Shown here one piece after another: positions 46,717 through 53,486 of a DNA stretch of 64,000 bases. Position numbers and translations under genes: made by a program. Origin of the DNA: an uncultured Vicinamibacteraceae bacterium (lineage in GTDB: Bacteria; Acidobacteriota; Vicinamibacteria; Vicinamibacterales; UBA8438); assembly GCA_964342185.1 (NCBI GenBank), contig CAYFER010000002.1:92946-156945 (forward strand). The letters run 5' to 3'. The notes under the pieces were generated by a model. That model was not told the DNA's origin. It was given only the letters and a program-made list of their open reading frames with translations, and ran no database searches. Position 1 is the first letter of the stretch. Every line of letters begins with the position of its first letter.

Positions 46717-48489
46717 GTGGGACGATTTCCACAGGGGTTTGTCGACGATCTTAAGTTACAAGCGGACATAGTGCAGGTGATCCAAGAATATGTTCCACTA
46801 AAAAAATCAGGGGCAACCTTTAAAGGACTTTGCCCATTTCATAATGAGAAAACACCGTCATTCAATGTTAACGGTGATAAGGGTTTCTTTCACTGTTTCG
46901 GCTGCGGAATAGGCGGTGACGTCGTCAAATTTATCGAACTCCAAGAGAAACTCAACTTTCCAGAAGCAGTCCGTCAACTTGCACAACGGTTCAGTGTTGA
47001 AATTCCTGAACCAGCTGATTTAGAACACGATATTGCTGCGGAAGCACGTCGAGAAATTTTGCTTACTCTTCATGACTCGGCAGCAAGTTATTTTCAAGAA
47101 CAACTCAACGCGCCTTCTGGTCGGTATGCACGACGTGTGCTCGAGCAGAGAGAGATCACACCAGAGACCATAAAACGTCTGGGGCTAGGGTATGCTCCTC
47201 AACAGCGGGAAGCGTTGACGAATCGGCTACTTGCTGCGGGTCATCAACCAGACCTAATTTTGGCAAGCGGTTTGGCTATTCAAAGAGAAGGAAACAAGTT
47301 AATCGATCGGTTTCGCAATAGACTCATGATTCCCATCTGTCGGACTAGCGGTTCGGTAATTGCATTTGGTGGTAGAGCTCTAGAAAGCGGACAACAGCCC
47401 AAATATGTTAATTCTCCAGAGACTGAACTCTACACGAAAGGCCGTACGCTCTATGGCCTGCATCTGACGAAGGACGCGATTCGACGCCTTGGATACTCTG
47501 TGATGGTAGAAGGCTATTTTGATTTTGCACAAGCAATGCAAGCTGGAGTAGCACCATTAGTCGCCACCTGCGGCACAGCAGTAACCAACCACCAGACGCG
47601 ACTACTTAAGCGATTTACTCCAAAGGTAATCCTAAGCTTCGACTCAGACACGGCCGGCCAAAATGCTTCGACTCGTTCGGGAGAACTATTAGTCTCAGAA
47701 GGACTTCAGGTCAATGTAGCTGTTTTGGACAAAGGCGAAGACCCAGATACAAGTGTGCGGCATAGAGGTCCGGCACATTACATAAAGCAGTTAAAAGAAT
47801 CCACACCGTACCTTGAGTTTGTCTTAGACCGGGCCTCTAATCGTTACGATTTTTCAAGCGATCAGCAAAGACGTGCATTTCTCACAGAAATGCTTAGTAT
47901 TGCAGCCAAGATTCCAGATGCTGCATCCCGGGACCAGTTTGCGGATAAACTGGCACACAAGGCGCGAGTCTTAGAAGACGTCGTTCGAACCGAGATTCGA
48001 CGAGCCGCGGTGGCACGACGAACGAAACTTACCGTAGAGACTCCTGACTCGGTGACTAGGATAACGCCGGCAGAACGTGGAATCCTCTGGGCGATAATGT
48101 GCAACACTTCGGAAGCACAAGAAGTAATTGCAGAATTGGATCCTGAGGATTTCGACGGTTTGACAACATCGCCGATCTTGCAGGTCGCGAAAACCTTAGT
48201 CGACTGGCCTGTCAACTCGATCAATCAGGCTCTACTCGACAGAGTAACTGACGAACAAGCCGCACTTACCAGTCGAATCGCCTCTGAACCTGAAGCACCA
48301 GCGCGGATATATGATTGTGCAATTGAATTAAAACGACTTCGCTTGGAACGAGAACGACACACGCTCCAGAGTGAAATCGACCGGAGGCAATTAAAAATAA
48401 CAGCAGAGCAATCTGAAGACGAACTTGTAAACGACTTACTTAAGCGTAAACACGACTTATTGCAGCGCATTGCAGCGTTAGAAGAGTAG
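46717..48489 (+). CDS. dnaG: DNA primase
   Basis: Zinc-binding CPFHNEKTPSFNV...FHCFGCG and a TOPRIM domain (MVEGYFD). GTG start 2 nt after the mutS2 stop. Confidence 0.95.
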   Translation: MGRFPQGFVDDLKLQADIVQVIQEYVPLKKSGATFKGLCPFHNEKTPSFNVNGDKGFFHCFGCGIGGDVVKFIELQEKLNFPEAVRQLAQRFSVEIPEPADLEHDIAAEARREILLTLHDSAASYFQEQLNAPSGRYARRVLEQREITPETIKRLGLGYAPQQREALTNRLLAAGHQPDLILASGLAIQREGNKLIDRFRNRLMIPICRTSGSVIAFGGRALESGQQPKYVNSPETELYTKGRTLYGLHLTKDAIRRLGYSVMVEGYFDFAQAMQAGVAPLVATCGTAVTNHQTRLLKRFTPKVILSFDSDTAGQNASTRSGELLVSEGLQVNVAVLDKGEDPDTSVRHRGPAHYIKQLKESTPYLEFVLDRASNRYDFSSDQQRRAFLTEMLSIAAKIPDAASRDQFADKLAHKARVLEDVVRTEIRRAAVARRTKLTVETPDSVTRITPAERGILWAIMCNTSEAQEVIAELDPEDFDGLTTSPILQVAKTLVDWPVNSINQALLDRVTDEQAALTSRIASEPEAPARIYDCAIELKRLRLERERHTLQSEIDRRQLKITAEQSEDELVNDLLKRKHDLLQRIAALEE

Positions 48490-48564: not shown

Positions 48565-50268
48565 TTGTCGCTTGAAGAGAAATACGACGAGATTCGCCAA
48601 CTAATAATCATCGGCAAGGAAAAGGGTTATCTACTGTACGAAGAAGTGAACGATGCTCTTCCAACAGACCTCACCTCTTCCGAAGACCTCGAAGATCTCT
48701 TTGGTTTACTAGGCACTACCGGTATTGAAATCGTCGACTCAGAAGACCAATATCGAGAAGAAAAGCTTCTTGACAGAACTGTTAAAGAAAAAAACACTGC
48801 TGAAACCGAAGTTGTACCGGCTGCCATCGATAAAACAAACGATCCGGTAAAGATGTATCTGAGAGAAATGGGTACTGTCCCACTCCTTAACCGTGAGGGT
48901 GAGGTAGAAATCGCCAAGCGGATTGAACGAGGCAAACTGGCTGCACTAAAATCGATTTCCCGAGTGCCGGCTGTCTCAAAGGTGATCATCCGGCTAGGAG
49001 AACAACTTGAAACTGGCGAGCGAACAATTCGAGAGCTTGTCACATTTAAGGACGATGAATTAACTGATAGCCGGATCGCCGACCGAACAAGGCAAATTCT
49101 TCGGCAGATCGATACCATTCAAAAAAAGCGAATAGAAGTTGACAGGAAAACAATCAAACTCAATACCATTTCAAAACGAGACCGGAGAAGATACCGGCGA
49201 GCATGGTGGCGTGTAGGGCGGACACGGATTGAACTCTCTCAACTAATTCGGCAGATCGAGTTCACTGATCCAGTCAAACGTAACCTAACCAATGTGATCA
49301 AGAAATCAGTGGAACGTATGAAGCGTATCCAACACGAGATCGATTTTTTGAATCGTAAAGTCAAGGACAAAACACAACTGAGGAAAGTAAAGGGCGAAGA
49401 ACAAAAGAATTTGATAAGACGGCTCCGTGAACAACGAAGGGAACTGCGAGTTCGAGTAGACGATCTGGAAACAACACCCGAGAAACTAGACCATACCCTT
49501 TCAGTTGTGATGCGGGGAGAGCTGGAAGCCGAGGACGCAAAACAGGAATTGGTCGAGGCCAACCTTCGATTAGTCGTTTCTATTGCAAAGAAATACACCA
49601 ACCGCGGGTTGCAATTCCTTGACCTTATTCAGGAAGGGAACATCGGCCTAATGAAGGCCGTCGATAAATTTGAATATCGCCGGGGTTACAAGTTCTCTAC
49701 CTATGCTACTTGGTGGATTCGGCAAGCGATCACCCGCGCAATAGCAGATCAAGCAAGAACCATCCGTATTCCGGTTCACATGATTGAAACGATTAACAAG
49801 CTAATCCGAACATCACGGTCATTAGTCCAAGAGTATGGACGCGAACCAACTTCCGAAGAAATCGCCGAGCGGATGGATATTCCCGTCATAAAAGTTCGAA
49901 AGGTTTTGAAGATTGCCCAAGAGCCGATCTCCCTAGAAACACCTATCGGTGATGAGGAAGACAGCCACTTGGGCGATTTTATTGAGGACAAGCAAGTTAT
50001 ATCGCCTGCAGAAACCGTTATCAGCTTAAGCCTAAAAGAACAGACTGACTCAATCTTGAAAACGTTGACACCACGGGAAGAGAAAGTGATCAAGATGCGG
50101 TTCGGAGTCGGAGAGAGAAGCGAGCATACCTTAGAAGAAGTAGGTCAGAATTTTGCGGTGACACGTGAACGAATCCGTCAGATCGAGGCCAAAGCCCTAC
50201 GAAAACTCCGACATCCCTCACGAAGCCGAAAACTGCGAGCTTTTCTCGACGATGGACCTAGCGGGTAG
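48565..50268 (+). CDS. rpoD: Primary RNA polymerase sigma factor (sigma-70)
   Basis: Regions 1.1 to 4.2 are recognisable ([68 protein letters not shown]). TTG start with an upstream AGGGAG. Confidence 0.96.
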
Positions 50269-50271
50269 TCA

Positions 50272-50347
50272 GGGCCCATAGCTCAGCGGTCAGAGCCGCC
50301 GGCTCATAACCGGCTTGTCCCAGGTTCGAATCCTGGTGGGCCCACCA
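50272..50347 (+). tRNA. tRNA with anticodon CAT (elongator Met, or Ile2 if lysidine-modified), CCA encoded
   Basis: Manual cloverleaf: acceptor GGGCCCA/TGGGCCC, D stem GCTC/GAGC, anticodon stem GCCGG/CCGGC with loop CTCATAA, T stem CCAGG/CCTGG with loop TTCGAAT, discriminator A, then CCA. The G1:C72 pair excludes an initiator. Confidence 0.93.
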
Positions 50348-50561
50348 TTTCTTGTTATGTTTATCTTCCTTCAAAAATTAGAATCACAACTTCGATTCAC
50401 CCAGGCTCAACCTGATTAGACGAGTCTCACGTGCCATCATCCTCAAGCAAGATCGTGCTAGTATCTGATTTTGAATGATTGCCCGCTTGCTAGCACTCTA
50501 TCGTGTGACTCAACACAGAACCTCAGGCTGCCGAGTCACCCAGGCCTCACAAACCACAGCG

Positions 50562-50586
50562 CCCCGTTTATCCGGGGATTTTTTTT
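50562..50586 (+). terminator. Putative intrinsic terminator upstream of the zinc-ribbon gene
   Basis: Stem ccccg (50562-66) / cgggg (50573-77), loop tttatc, then A + T8 (50579-86). Confidence 0.5.
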
Positions 50587-50605
50587 GCCCATCAGGACAA
50601 ACACG

Positions 50606-51328
50606 ATGCTACCCGAGCTCGAATATTTAATCCGGCTTCAACAACTTGAAAGTAGATCCACAGAGACTCGTGAGCAGATCGATAATATTCCAGTAAAACT
50701 CGAACACTTAGAACTACAGATTGCAGAACGCGTTAAGGAAGTTGAAAATGTAAATCAAACCTTAGAAAAACATCGAAACTCACGGGTTGCTTTGGAGAAG
50801 GACGTTGCCGAAATACAGAGTCGACTTAGCCGATTCAAAGAACAACTCATGGCAGTTAAAACCAACAAAGAATACCAAGCGATGCAAACAGAAATTTCGA
50901 ATGGCGAAGAAGAGATGAAGCGCTTGGAAGACAAACTGCTTGAAAGAATGCTTGAAGGTGACGATCTGAATGGAAATTTAGAACAAGCGGAACAACTATT
51001 AGTAAAAGAACGAAATATTGTCGAGACTGAACGGTCACGTATCGAAAAAGAACAGATTGAACTAGAGCAACAGATCAGAGTAGTTCAGGTCGAACGAAAC
51101 GAACTCGTTTCCCAGTTACCTACCCAAACCGTTGACCTGTTCGAGATGCTGGCACAAGGCCGCAAAGGCATTGCAGTAGTTGAGGCTGCCAATGGTCGAT
51201 GTAACTCTTGCCAAGTAAGGCTACGGCCGCAACTTTTCAATAGCGTTCGCTCCAATAACGCGCTTATTCAATGCGAGAGTTGTCAGCGTATTCTGTATTT
51301 CGTTGAACCTCCTGACGAAACGGAATAA
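50606..51328 (+). CDS. Coiled-coil zinc-ribbon protein (COG1579 / DUF164, HP0958-like)
   Basis: Long heptad-rich coiled coil ending in a CxxC...CxxC ribbon (CNSCQVRL...CESCQRILY). I prefer the ATG at 50606 to the track TTG start at 50471, which would read through the terminator. Confidence 0.8.
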   Translation: MLPELEYLIRLQQLESRSTETREQIDNIPVKLEHLELQIAERVKEVENVNQTLEKHRNSRVALEKDVAEIQSRLSRFKEQLMAVKTNKEYQAMQTEISNGEEEMKRLEDKLLERMLEGDDLNGNLEQAEQLLVKERNIVETERSRIEKEQIELEQQIRVVQVERNELVSQLPTQTVDLFEMLAQGRKGIAVVEAANGRCNSCQVRLRPQLFNSVRSNNALIQCESCQRILYFVEPPDETE

Positions 51329-52176
51329 TGGTACAAGCCACCGTAATTGCGTACATCGATGGAGGCGCGAGGGGAAATCCAGGGCCTGCAGGATATGGCG
51401 TTAGAGTCGAAACATCCGATGGCACATTGATCGAAGAACTGCACGGCTCGATTGGTGTGGCCACCAACAATGTCGCGGAATACAGTGCTTTGGTCGCCGC
51501 ACTTACGTATCTTGATCAACAGGGTTTTCAAGACGTAACCATCAAGTCTGACTCCCAGCTACTAACCAAACAAATGCTTGGAGAGTACCGGGTTAGGAGT
51601 CCAGGCATATCCCCACTTCATCGAGAGGCATCGGCCCTAGTCCAACGTTTGGGTAATGTCCGATTCGAACATATCCCGCGTAACATGAATGCTGAAGCTG
51701 ACCGCTTAGCCAATGTTGCGATGGATGTCAGCGCGGCTAGCCAATATCCAGTCCACCAAGCAGGCGTAGCCGCGACAGTAGGAACCCTTCAAGAAAGCTC
51801 TATCCTATCAATTGGCATCGATATGGAATCAATCAACCGCGTGAACAATCTGTTACAAAAATATGGCGAACGATTTCTTAACCGCATTTTCACCGAACAT
51901 GAAGTTGACTATTCCCTACGGCGAAAATTTCCAGCTCAACATCTGGCCGCACGTTTCTGCGCAAAAGAAGCCACTATGAAGGCACTGGGAACAGGACGAT
52001 CGTTAGGCGTGCTCTGGACAAGTATAGAAGTTATAAGAGTCTCAGGACCTCCTCGACTCAGGTTATACAGCGGCGCAGAAAAACGGTTCCAAGAATTAGG
52101 AGCTGAACGCTCACTGCTGACAATAACTCATACCGGCGATTTAGCGTTTGCCCAAGTGCTGTTATTGAAGGCGTAG
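51328..52176 (+). CDS. Fusion protein: N-terminal RNase HI + C-terminal holo-[acyl-carrier-protein] synthase (AcpS)
   Basis: Residues about 1-135 have the RNase H DEDD pattern (AYIDGGARGNPGPAGYG, TNNVAEYSAL, IKSDSQLL, NAEADRLAN). Residues about 160-282 are AcpS-like (IGIDMESINRV..., GERFLNRIFTEHE, LAARFCAKEATMKALG, LTITHTGDLAFAQVLL). It is a single uninterrupted ORF. Its start overlaps the upstream stop (TAATG). Confidence 0.85.
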   Translation: MVQATVIAYIDGGARGNPGPAGYGVRVETSDGTLIEELHGSIGVATNNVAEYSALVAALTYLDQQGFQDVTIKSDSQLLTKQMLGEYRVRSPGISPLHREASALVQRLGNVRFEHIPRNMNAEADRLANVAMDVSAASQYPVHQAGVAATVGTLQESSILSIGIDMESINRVNNLLQKYGERFLNRIFTEHEVDYSLRRKFPAQHLAARFCAKEATMKALGTGRSLGVLWTSIEVIRVSGPPRLRLYSGAEKRFQELGAERSLLTITHTGDLAFAQVLLLKA

Positions 52177-52211: not shown

Positions 52212-53486
52212 CTACTTGCCAGATCGCGGCAGGAAGGCTGGCGTGTCAAGAGACGTGTCTAATTCTAGAACCTCACTAGGGTCATCGTCGTTGCTCTTTT
52301 TGTCGAGTGTGGACACTTCCTCAACATTAGAATTTTCAGAAGGCAAACGTCGAATAATGGCAATATCATCACCCACCGCTTGTGCCATCGGCGTTTCTGA
52401 TTGCAATTCAGCATAGTTCCGTAAATCAACCGGTGTTGCATCTGGCGGTAAAGCTAATTTCGAATCTGACGGTGGCAAGCCAAATCCTGTTGCAATAACG
52501 GTAATTTTTACCCGGCCCTTCATAGAAGGATCAATCACCGCACCAAAGATAATATTGGCTTCATCATCGGCGGCTTCGGAGATTATCGTTGTTGCTTCGC
52601 TGACTTCAGCAAGGGATAAATCTGGTCCAGCCGTAACATTGACGATCACGCCTCGAGCTCCCTCAACTGCTGCTTCTTCTAGCAACGGGCTGGACACGGC
52701 TCGGTTAGCGGCATCTATTGCTCGCTTTTCACCTTCACCAATCCCAGTGCCCATTATGGCCAAGCCCATTCCCGACATGATTGTTGTCACATCTGCAAAA
52801 TCTAAATTGATCAAACCAGGCATGATAATCAGGTCAGAGATTCCTTGTATCGCCTGATGAAGAACGTCGTCTGCACGAGCAAACGCATCTGGAACACTTG
52901 TTGTTGAATCGATCGTTGCGAGTAAGCGTTCATTGGGAATCGTGATTACTGTGTCTACAGATTCCTGTAGCTCCTCAAGACCACGGTTTGCTTGTGACTC
53001 ACGCCGCTTCCCTTCAAAAGCAAAAGGTTTAGTTACCACCGCTACCGTCAGAGCACCAAGTTCGCTCGCCAAATTGGCTATCACTGGTGCCGCGCCCGTA
53101 CCTGTTCCGCCACCTAACCCAGCCGTGACGAAGACCATGTCAGCTCCGTCAAGAGCCCCGATTAGCTGTTCGGTATCTTCAAGAGCGGCCTGGCGGCCGA
53201 CCGTCGGATCAGCTCCCGCACCAAGACCTTTAGTGAGCTTCGCACCAAGCTGCAGCCGTACCGGTGCAGAGGCTTGTGCCAAAGCCTGAGCATCAGTATT
53301 AGCAACGATAAAATCGATGCCTTCAAGACCGGCCGCCACCATCGAATTGACGGCATTACTTCCACCACCACCGACTCCAATCACTTTAATGCTAGCTCCT
53401 GGTTTGAAGTCACTGTCCAGTGTAAGCCTCAGTTCTGGTTCTTCTTCAGAACGAAAATCATTACTCTGACTTGGTAAGTCTGGCAT
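52212..53486 (-). CDS. ftsZ: Cell division GTPase FtsZ
   Basis: [15 protein letters not shown], the [11 protein letters not shown] tubulin signature, and a C-terminal conserved peptide (LDTPAFLPR). Confidence 0.97.

What the first reader, a model, noticed from the sequence alone, without database searches (positions are those of the whole stretch)
51328..52176. Single-ORF fusion of RNase HI with holo-ACP synthase (AcpS), downstream of a COG1579 zinc-ribbon gene
The N-terminal half has all four RNase H carboxylates in context (DGG, AEY, SDS, ADRLAN) and resembles the Rv2228c-type RNase HI. The C-terminal half is a full AcpS (IGIDMESINRV, FTEHE, AKEATMKALG, ITHTGDLA). In actinobacteria this RNase HI type is fused to a CobC-like acid phosphatase (Rv2228c). 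As I recall, it also sits next to a COG1579 zinc-ribbon gene, so the zinc-ribbon/RNase H linkage appears to be conserved while the fusion partner is swapped. An RNase H-phosphopantetheinyl transferase fusion links R-loop or primer removal with fatty-acid/ACP activation, and I do not know it to be described. If this is the only acpS in the genome, the fusion would be essential.
Basis: partly seen in the sequence, partly recalled or inferred. Interest (0 to 1): 0.55.

Follow-up and report, generated by a model that had tools for sequence, protein, structure and literature searches.

The report
RNase HI–AcpS fusion from neighbouring genes
One gene in a soil/marine Acidobacteriota lineage really does encode an RNA:DNA-hybrid nuclease joined to the enzyme that activates acyl carrier protein, but the join arose when two neighbouring housekeeping genes merged, so it is a tidy lineage-specific fusion and probably not a new pathway.

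Summary
Window 51328..52176(+) is one uninterrupted 282-aa ORF. It has an N-terminal type 1 RNase H domain closest to the Rv2228c N-domain (45% identity) and a C-terminal AcpS-type phosphopantetheinyl transferase. A 13–41 aa variable linker, predicted with low confidence, joins them. Catalytic residues of both halves are invariant or nearly so in 120 fused homologues, so this is not a frameshift artefact.

The COG1579/CT398-like zinc-ribbon gene lies immediately upstream, with a TAATG stop/start overlap. That linkage holds in 60 of 72 related loci and is reported for mycobacteria.

The fusion is restricted to one clade of Vicinamibacterales (Acidobacteriota), with 197/200 bootstrap support. 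Its sister lineage has rnh and acpS as adjacent separate genes. Other relatives have rnh→ ←pgeF acpS→ within about 800 bp. The fusion therefore most likely came from loss of pgeF and then of the rnh stop codon.

The best reading is a bifunctional protein with two autonomous housekeeping activities. No evidence for mechanistic coupling was found. I found no paper describing it, and databases label it incompletely. I could not test whether it is the only acpS in the genome. I rate it a new variant of a known kind, of modest interest.

The parts
51328..52176 (+). Fused rnh-acpS gene, 282 aa plus stop
   Evidence: ORF list and sequence; both Pfam domains lie in one frame; 120 fused homologues
51328..51732 (+). 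Type 1 RNase H domain (residues 1-135). Catalytic D11 (51358-60), E51 (51478-80), D75 (51550-52), D125 (51700-02)
   Evidence: Pfam RVT_3/RNase_H; PDB 3hst, 3u3g, 4e19; Foldseek TM 0.89-0.94 to these; DEDD conserved
51733..51801 (+). Interdomain linker (residues 136-158), variable in length and sequence across the family
   Evidence: Alignment A1; linker 13-41 aa, median 26; AlphaFold pLDDT 44-62 in this stretch
51802..52173 (+). AcpS-type (group I) 4'-phosphopantetheinyl transferase domain (residues 159-282). D165, E214, K218 and H268 conserved
   Evidence: Pfam ACPS, TIGR00516, TIGR00556; PDB AcpS hits; Foldseek TM 0.84-0.94; residues conserved in 120/120
50606..51328 (+). COG1579/CT398-like coiled-coil plus C4 zinc-ribbon gene (240 aa). 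Its TAA stop overlaps the fusion's ATG (TAATG)
   Evidence: Pfam Zn_ribbon_9 and CT398_CC; PDB 4ilo, 3na7, 5y05; start inferred from homologues; junction sequence; found upstream of rnh in 60/72 loci
50272..50347 (+). tRNA-Met (CAT) between rpoD and the zinc-ribbon gene
   Evidence: Rfam tRNA 69.5 bits; ARAGORN
50562..50587 (+). Terminator-like hairpin plus T-run, about 20 nt upstream of the zinc-ribbon ATG
   Evidence: Consensus scan only; function not shown
48565..50268 (+). rpoD (sigma-70), upstream context; dnaG at 46717..48489 precedes it
   Evidence: ORF translations; conserved context with Pfam labels in L080/L081 and across loci
52212..53486 (-). ftsZ, convergent with the fusion; 35 nt separate the two stop codons
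   Evidence: Pfam Tubulin and FtsZ_C; coordinates

Best explanation
The gene encodes a bifunctional protein made of two autonomous housekeeping enzymes on a flexible tether. The N-terminal module is a metal-dependent type 1 RNase H of the Rv2228c / Sulfolobus tokodaii / LC11 subfamily, which cuts the RNA strand of RNA:DNA hybrids. The C-terminal module is an AcpS-type phosphopantetheinyl transferase, which moves 4'-phosphopantetheine from CoA onto apo-ACP. The fusion arose once, in one clade of Vicinamibacterales. rnh (already coupled to the upstream zinc-ribbon gene) and acpS were close neighbours on the same strand. The opposite-strand pgeF gene between them was lost, which made them adjacent. 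Loss of the rnh stop codon then joined the two frames. The domains, catalytic residues, fold, phyletic pattern and gene-order series are shown here. Both enzymatic activities, the inherited AcpS homotrimer (which would display three RNase H domains) and the direction adjacent-to-fused are inferred.
For: - Both domains score above curated cut-offs.
- Catalytic residues are conserved in 118-120 of 120 family members.
- AlphaFold gives two confident domains and a low-confidence linker. Foldseek matches each half separately to RNase H1 and AcpS structures, and no solved chain spans both.
- The linker varies from 13 to 41 aa with little sequence conservation.
- The fused state is monophyletic in 197/200 bootstraps on the concatenated domains, the adjacent-unfused pair L016/L028 in 194/200, and the two together in 136/200.
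- L016 reads TGA-tc-ATG and L028 reads TAG, 16 nt, ATG, so these are clean separate genes.
- About 12 other Vicinamibacterales loci have rnh(+), a Cu-oxidase_4/PgeF gene on the minus strand, then acpS(+) roughly 800-900 bp on.
- Stand-alone AcpS in those relatives scores as high on the fusion-derived AcpS HMM (about 170-200 bits) as the fused copies do (175-226), which fits orthology.
- In the RnhC precedent the two domains were reported as functionally dissociable in vivo (PMC7466739).
Against: - No biochemical data exist for this protein.
- The trees are neighbour-joining on about 258 columns. Support for adjacent and fused being sisters is only moderate (136/200), and the AcpS domain alone does not recover it (7/200).
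- The direction adjacent-to-fused, as opposed to fission of an earlier fusion, is not resolved by the tree.
- The fusion has persisted across sequences down to 53-56% identity, with the linker always kept in frame. That could reflect selection for co-expression or co-assembly and not mere neutrality.
Confidence: 0.8

Rival explanations
1. The fusion is functionally meaningful. Tethering RNase HI to trimeric AcpS creates a trivalent RNase H, or couples RNA:DNA-hybrid processing with ACP activation or envelope growth. It would be co-translated with the zinc-ribbon protein, at a locus lying between the dnaG-rpoD and ftsZ/dcw clusters.
For: The fusion is retained in every one of 120 family clusters across 56-100% identity. 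It shows tight translational coupling to the zinc-ribbon gene (TAATG). E. coli RNase H enzymes have been reported to bind and stimulate LpxA, an acyl-ACP-using enzyme (PMC10326835), which is a loose precedent for a link between RNase H and lipid synthesis.
Against: The sister lineage keeps the genes separate, and wider relatives have an unrelated opposite-strand gene between them. There was a single origin in one narrow clade, and no other RNase H-AcpS fusion appears among the top 150 of 1.84 billion representatives. The linker is variable and predicted to be flexible. The E. coli precedent concerns LpxA, not AcpS.
Confidence: 0.12
2. One half is a non-catalytic passenger. For example, the AcpS domain might serve only as an oligomerisation scaffold while another PPTase (a second AcpS or an Sfp type) does the housekeeping job. 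Alternatively, the RNase H domain might be a nucleic-acid-binding pseudo-enzyme.
For: The rest of the genome could not be searched, so other PPTase and RNase H genes may exist. Two family members carry D125N and one carries D11V.
Against: The Mg-binding and catalytic residues of both domains are conserved in 118-120 of 120 sequences. The fused AcpS groups with, and scores like, the stand-alone AcpS of relatives at the same locus. No second stand-alone copy from the six fused reference assemblies appeared among the 80 best genome loci, though that scan was motif-based and capped.
Confidence: 0.05
3. The apparent fusion is an assembly or sequencing artefact, a lost stop codon or a frameshift, and there are really two genes.
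For: A few members of the 90% cluster of P0043 appear as split pairs of about 150 aa that diverge by a frameshift after 'EPTIAPP' in the linker.
Against: The identical 282-aa protein occurs on 7 contigs from independent projects. At least 120 clusters from short- and long-read assemblies keep one frame through linkers of different lengths. The split pairs are 95-99% identical to fused siblings and look like single-base indel errors.
Confidence: 0.02

Closest known systems
Rv2228c / MSMEG_4305 (RnhC) / SCO2299: bifunctional RNase HI-acid phosphatase (CobC-like) of Actinobacteria
   Same: The N-terminal RNase HI belongs to the same subfamily (45% identity to the 3hst domain). It is the N-terminal module of a two-domain protein. 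It lies directly downstream of a COG1579/CT398-like zinc-ribbon gene (Rv2229c/MSMEG_4306). In RnhC the two domains were reported as functionally dissociable (PMC7466739).
   Different: The C-terminal partner is an AcpS-type PPTase, not a histidine-phosphatase/CobC domain. The PRK07238 model matches only over positions 4-147 of 378 and scores 138.7 against a cut-off of 326. It is an independent fusion event in a different phylum.
Stand-alone AcpS (E. coli, V. cholerae, B. subtilis, S. coelicolor)
   Same: A single domain of about 120 aa with the same fold (TM 0.84-0.94), the same Mg/CoA-binding Asp and Glu, and the conserved His seen in the S. coelicolor enzyme. It appears orthologous to the stand-alone acpS at the same locus in relatives.
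   Different: It carries a 135-aa RNase H domain and a linker at its N-terminus.
Fungal type I FAS alpha subunit, C-terminal PPT domain
   Same: An AcpS-type PPTase fused naturally at its N-terminus to other domains (PDB hits 4v58, 2uv8, 2was/2wat). This shows the fold can sit at the C-terminal end of a larger polypeptide.
   Different: There the partner belongs to the same pathway (FAS, with its own ACP). Here the partner is an unrelated nucleic-acid enzyme.
Stand-alone archaeal-type or metagenomic RNase H1 (Halobacterium RNase H1 4e19, LC11-RNase H1 3u3g, S. tokodaii RNase HI 2ehg)
   Same: Closest structural matches for the N-terminal half (TM 0.78-0.94, 35-42% identity).
   Different: None of these has a PPTase fused to it.

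Membership tests
Type 1 RNase H (RNase HI), Rv2228c/Sto/LC11 subfamily | Profile match above the curated threshold (Pfam RNase_H / RVT_3) | tested here: met
   RVT_3 71.7 bits against 21.6; RNase_H 41.5 against 25.8
Type 1 RNase H (RNase HI), Rv2228c/Sto/LC11 subfamily | Four catalytic carboxylates (D-E-D-D) in their conserved motifs | tested here: met
   D11, E51, D75 and D125 are invariant in A1; 119, 120, 120 and 118 of 120 across the family
Type 1 RNase H (RNase HI), Rv2228c/Sto/LC11 subfamily | RNase H fold, closest to subfamily members | tested here: met
   AlphaFold core pLDDT above 90; Foldseek 4e19, 3hst, 3u3g at TM 0.89-0.94 against about 0.7 for E. coli RNase HI
Type 1 RNase H (RNase HI), Rv2228c/Sto/LC11 subfamily | Cleavage of the RNA strand of RNA:DNA hybrids | not testable with these tools
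   Needs an enzyme assay
AcpS-type (group I) 4'-phosphopantetheinyl transferase | Profile match above the curated threshold | tested here: met
   Pfam ACPS 63 against 25; TIGR00516 acpS 68.6 against 59.8; TIGR00556 84.8 against 45.35
AcpS-type (group I) 4'-phosphopantetheinyl transferase | Mg2+/CoA-binding Asp (IGxD) and Glu/Lys (AKEA..K) residues; single domain of about 120 aa | tested here: met
   D165, K213, E214 and K218 in 120/120, H268 in 120/120; aligned end to end with E. coli, V. cholerae and S. coelicolor AcpS
AcpS-type (group I) 4'-phosphopantetheinyl transferase | Homotrimer with active sites at subunit interfaces; transfers phosphopantetheine to apo-ACP | not testable with these tools
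   Inferred from family membership only
Bifunctional RNase H/acid phosphatase (Rv2228c, NCBIfam NF005567 PRK07238); JGI and Tara label 'probable phosphoglycerate mutase' K15634 | C-terminal histidine-phosphatase (CobC/PGM-like) domain and a full-length model match | tested here: not met
   Only model positions 4-147 of 378 match, scoring 138.7 against cut-off 326; no His_Phos domain in Pfam. The database label is a mis-transfer.
COG1579 / CT398-HP0958-MSMEG_4306 coiled-coil zinc-ribbon proteins (upstream gene) | N-terminal coiled-coil hairpin plus C-terminal C4 zinc ribbon | tested here: met
   CT398_CC 35.6 against 27; Zn_ribbon_9 35.8 against 29.1; PDB 4ilo E 9.6e-15, 3na7 6.5e-07, 5y05 4.4e-05. 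The CdsZ equivalog model is not reached (70.9 against 275).

The most novel reading that the evidence does not exclude
The more interesting signal may be the conserved zinc-ribbon→RNase HI gene pair and not the AcpS join. The pair is translationally coupled here, present in 60 of 72 acidobacterial loci, and also found in mycobacteria, where Rv2229c is reported essential and of unknown function. It may form a functional module. The CT398/HP0958-like protein has homologues that bind sigma factor, RNA polymerase and mRNA. It could bring RNase HI to transcription-associated RNA:DNA hybrids. In the fused clade this module would additionally be displayed as a trimer through AcpS.
Probability: 0.15. 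Interest if true: 0.6.

Novelty: new variant of a known kind. Interest (0 to 1): 0.3.

Why it matters
- **Annotation:** it corrects a large environmental protein family that is currently labelled 'holo-ACP synthase', 'ribonuclease HI' or, wrongly, 'probable phosphoglycerate mutase'.
- **Evolution:** it gives an unusually clean three-state record (separated, adjacent, fused) of how a bifunctional gene forms from neighbouring genes.
- **RNase HI biology:** this RNase HI subfamily has now been captured into two-domain proteins at least twice, with unrelated partners, while keeping its zinc-ribbon neighbour. That points attention to the unexplained zinc-ribbon/RNase HI partnership.
- **Physiology:** if the fused gene is the only acpS, then an essential lipid-synthesis function in these abundant soil and marine Acidobacteriota is carried on the same polypeptide as RNase HI.

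Tried and rejected
- I first guessed the gene between rnh and acpS in relatives was pdxJ, from the classical pdxJ-acpS operon. Pfam shows it is a minus-strand Cu-oxidase_4 (YfiH/PgeF-type) gene.
- Representative-library hits with 2-3 matched stretches (P0163-P0177) looked like possible independent fusions. They are tandem RNase H (RVT_3) repeats, some with a SAP domain.
- The first bootstrap script timed out. It was redone with numpy distances.
- Loci matching only one half of the query looked like missing domains. Domain-HMM scanning showed many have the other gene nearby.
- I looked for a named or cultured organism carrying the fusion through P0059. Only metagenome records came back.
- Three literature searches for RNase H with AcpS or PPTase found no description of the fusion.
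- Split ~150-aa cluster members were considered as secondary fission. A frameshift within otherwise 95-99% identical sequence points to an assembly error.
- I could not determine whether a second acpS, an Sfp-type PPTase, or rnhA/rnhB exists elsewhere in the genome. Only the 64-kb window and ±6-kb loci were accessible.

Full report
**1. Observation**

Window 51328..52176(+) is a single ATG-initiated ORF of 282 codons plus a stop. ATG 51328 is the only in-frame start between the preceding stop and the first conserved domain residue.

Pfam finds RVT_3 (residues 11-130, E 6.5e-20), RNase_H (5-129) and ACPS (161-256, E 3.3e-17), all above their gathering scores. In NCBIfam the N-half is best matched by the N-terminal 147 positions of the bifunctional RNase H/acid phosphatase model PRK07238. 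The C-half matches holo-ACP synthase models, and TIGR00516 and TIGR00556 are above their cut-offs.

Against solved structures, the N-half is closest to the Rv2228c RNase H domain (3hst, E 1.9e-29, 45% identity), LC11-RNase H1 and Halobacterium RNase H1. The C-half is closest to the AcpS of V. cholerae, E. coli and S. coelicolor, and to the PPT domain of fungal FAS.

**2. Not an artefact; both halves are under constraint**

A search of 5.8 billion proteins returned at least 120 clusters at 90% identity, 56-100% identical to the query. All carry both domains in one ORF of 271-310 aa, and some lie on Mb-scale contigs. The identical protein is on 7 contigs from independent sources. Independent gene callers annotate a single gene.

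Conservation across the 120 sequences:

| Domain | Residue | Conserved in |
|---|---|---|
| RNase H | D11 | 119/120 |
| RNase H | E51 | 120/120 |
| RNase H | D75 | 120/120 |
| RNase H | D125 | 118/120 |
| AcpS | D165 | 120/120 |
| AcpS | K213 | 120/120 |
| AcpS | E214 | 120/120 |
| AcpS | K218 | 120/120 |
| AcpS | H268 | 120/120 |

The linker is 13-41 aa (median 26) and poorly conserved. AlphaFold2 gives a mean pLDDT of 86.3 and pTM of 0.72. It predicts two confident domains, and residues of roughly 136-158 fall to pLDDT 44-62. Foldseek matches each half separately, with RNase H1 structures at TM 0.89-0.94 and AcpS structures at TM 0.84-0.94. No solved chain covers both halves.

A few split ~150-aa members of one cluster differ from fused siblings only by a frameshift in the linker. 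These are probably assembly errors.

**3. Lineage and context**

Reference-genome loci place the window in Vicinamibacteraceae/Vicinamibacterales, Acidobacteriota. L001 is 91% identical, and NCBI names related proteins 'holo-ACP synthase [Acidobacteriota bacterium]'.

The conserved context is mutS2-dnaG-rpoD-(tRNA-Met in the window)-zinc-ribbon gene-[rnh-acpS]→ ←ftsZ-ftsA-ftsQ-murC-murG.

The upstream 240-aa gene (50606..51328) has CT398_CC and Zn_ribbon_9 domains. It is homologous to CT398 (E 9.6e-15), HP0958 and MSMEG_4306. Its TAA stop overlaps the fusion's ATG (TAATG).

A zinc-ribbon gene ends within 400 nt upstream of the RNase H gene, on the same strand, in 60 of 72 loci. The exceptions are mostly Acidobacteriaceae. 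Rv2229c/MSMEG_4306 is a coiled-coil zinc-ribbon protein, reported essential in M. tuberculosis (PMC5947703), and it is described as sharing an operon with Rv2228c (PMC7466739).

**4. Origin of the fusion**

I scanned the 79 reference loci with domain HMMs derived from the fusion. Three states emerged:

- **Fused:** the window and L001-L006.
- **Adjacent but separate:** L016 (…TGA tc ATG…) and L028 (…TAG, 16 nt, ATG…). In both, AcpS starts directly at its first conserved strand.
- **Separated:** about a dozen Vicinamibacterales loci have rnh(+) and acpS(+) roughly 800-900 bp apart, with a minus-strand Cu-oxidase_4/YfiH-PgeF-type gene between them. Other loci have acpS several kb away or outside the fetched flank.

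In a neighbour-joining tree of the RNase H domain, the fused loci form one clade. The adjacent pair is its sister, and the ~800-bp separated loci L007-L009 branch next. Bootstrap support on the concatenated domains is 197/200 for the fused clade, 194/200 for the adjacent pair and 136/200 for the two together. The single-domain trees are weaker, and the AcpS domain alone recovers the fused+adjacent grouping in only 7/200.

Downstream content also shrinks stepwise:

| State | Gene order from rnh to ftsZ |
|---|---|
| Separated | rnh→ ←pgeF acpS→ X→ ←B12-binding radical-SAM gene ←ftsZ |
| Adjacent | rnh→ acpS→ ←radical-SAM gene ←ftsZ |
| Fused (L004) | rnh-acpS→ small ORF→ ←ftsZ |
| Fused (window, L001) | rnh-acpS→ ←ftsZ, 35 nt between stop codons |

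The most economical history is loss of pgeF, then adjacency, then loss of the rnh stop codon, all within one clade. The polarity of the last step is inferred, not shown.

**5. Spread**

An exhaustive HMMER pass over 1.84 billion representatives at 50% identity found only two full-length fused representatives (P0048, P0159) among the top 150. The other multi-stretch hits are tandem RNase H repeats. Very divergent independent fusions that score below about 116 bits would not have been listed, so I cannot fully exclude them.

**6. How it most likely works**

Each domain should retain its own chemistry: two-metal hydrolysis of the RNA strand in RNA:DNA hybrids, and Mg-dependent transfer of phosphopantetheine from CoA to apo-ACP. 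AcpS enzymes are homotrimers (established knowledge of the family), so the fusion would probably present three RNase H domains on flexible tethers. This is inference.

I found nothing that requires cross-talk between the domains:
- the sister lineage keeps them separate;
- the linker is unconstrained;
- in the RnhC precedent the two domains are reported to be functionally dissociable (PMC7466739).

A loose precedent for a link between RNase H and lipid metabolism exists in E. coli, where RnhA and RnhB stimulate LpxA (PMC10326835). It does not involve AcpS.

**7. What remains open**

I could not establish whether the fused gene is the only acpS or PPTase, or the only RNase H, in the genome. The window has no second copy of either domain, and no second AcpS locus from the six fused reference assemblies appeared among the 80 best loci. 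That scan was motif-based and capped, however. The promoter of the operon carrying the zinc-ribbon gene and the fusion is also unlocated. A terminator-like hairpin lies about 20 nt before the zinc-ribbon ATG.

**8. Novelty and score**

No paper in the searchable library describes an RNase H-AcpS fusion. Public annotations are partial or wrong: 'holo-ACP synthase', 'ribonuclease HI' and 'probable phosphoglycerate mutase'.

It is a new domain architecture built from two well-known enzymes. It parallels RnhC-type fusions but arose independently, so I class it as a new variant of a known kind. Fusion of neighbouring housekeeping genes is a common process, and no new mechanism is implied, so the interest is modest (0.3). 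The clean evolutionary series and the cross-phylum zinc-ribbon/RNase HI linkage are the most useful by-products.

Noticed in passing
window 50272-50347 (+) and 50348-50605: A tRNA-Met (CAT) gene sits 4 nt after the rpoD stop. About 215 nt with no annotation follow, then a terminator-like hairpin (50562-50577) with a T-run only about 20 nt before the zinc-ribbon ATG. The promoter for the operon carrying the zinc-ribbon gene and the fusion is not evident.
   Followed up: partly
window 50471-50605: The mechanical ORF for the zinc-ribbon gene starts at TTG 50471 (285 aa). Homologues, including L008, begin at MLPELE, which is ATG 50606 (240 aa). The longer start is probably an over-extension.
   Followed up: partly
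family annotations (P0012, P0029, P0058, P0062; Tara record of P0001): JGI and Tara label fused family members 'probable phosphoglycerate mutase' (K15634). This looks like a transfer from Rv2228c-type RNase H/acid phosphatase proteins, and no histidine-phosphatase domain is present. NCBI labels them only 'holo-ACP synthase'.
   Followed up: yes
P0163-P0177 (representative library hits): These proteins carry two or three tandem RVT_3-type RNase H domains, and some also have an N-terminal SAP domain (P0165, P0170). They are an unrelated multi-RNase H architecture.
   Followed up: partly
L058, L059, L061, L066, L067, L071, L077-L079 (Acidobacteriaceae/Terriglobales): The RNase H genes of this subfamily here have no zinc-ribbon gene upstream. 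The reading frame stays open for about 55 codons beyond the RNase H domain, and this tail has no Pfam match.
   Followed up: partly
L026 and L073: These MAGs are labelled Bifidobacteriaceae (L026) and Clostridia (L073), but their RNase H sequences nest among Acidobacteriota sequences, and L026 also shares their rpoD/zinc-ribbon context. This probably reflects mis-binning or mislabelling.
   Followed up: no
L008 8645-10435 (-), L016 6915-8762 (-), L028 7005-8843 (-): A radical-SAM gene of about 600 aa (Radical_SAM_N2 and Radical_SAM domains, weak B12-binding match) lies next to ftsZ in the separated and adjacent loci. It is absent from this position in the window and in L001.
   Followed up: partly
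P0136/P0139 and P0141/P0142 (90% cluster of P0043): Split ~150-aa RNase H and AcpS ORFs lie on the same contigs. They are 95-99% identical to the fused P0043 and diverge by a frameshift after 'EPTIAPP' in the linker. A single-base indel assembly error is the likely cause, though real strain-level fission is not excluded.
   Followed up: partly
L008 7606-8178 (+), L004 6886-7308 (+), L080 6989-7297 (+): A small ORF with high GC3 and no Pfam match follows acpS in several loci. It is absent from the window.
   Followed up: no
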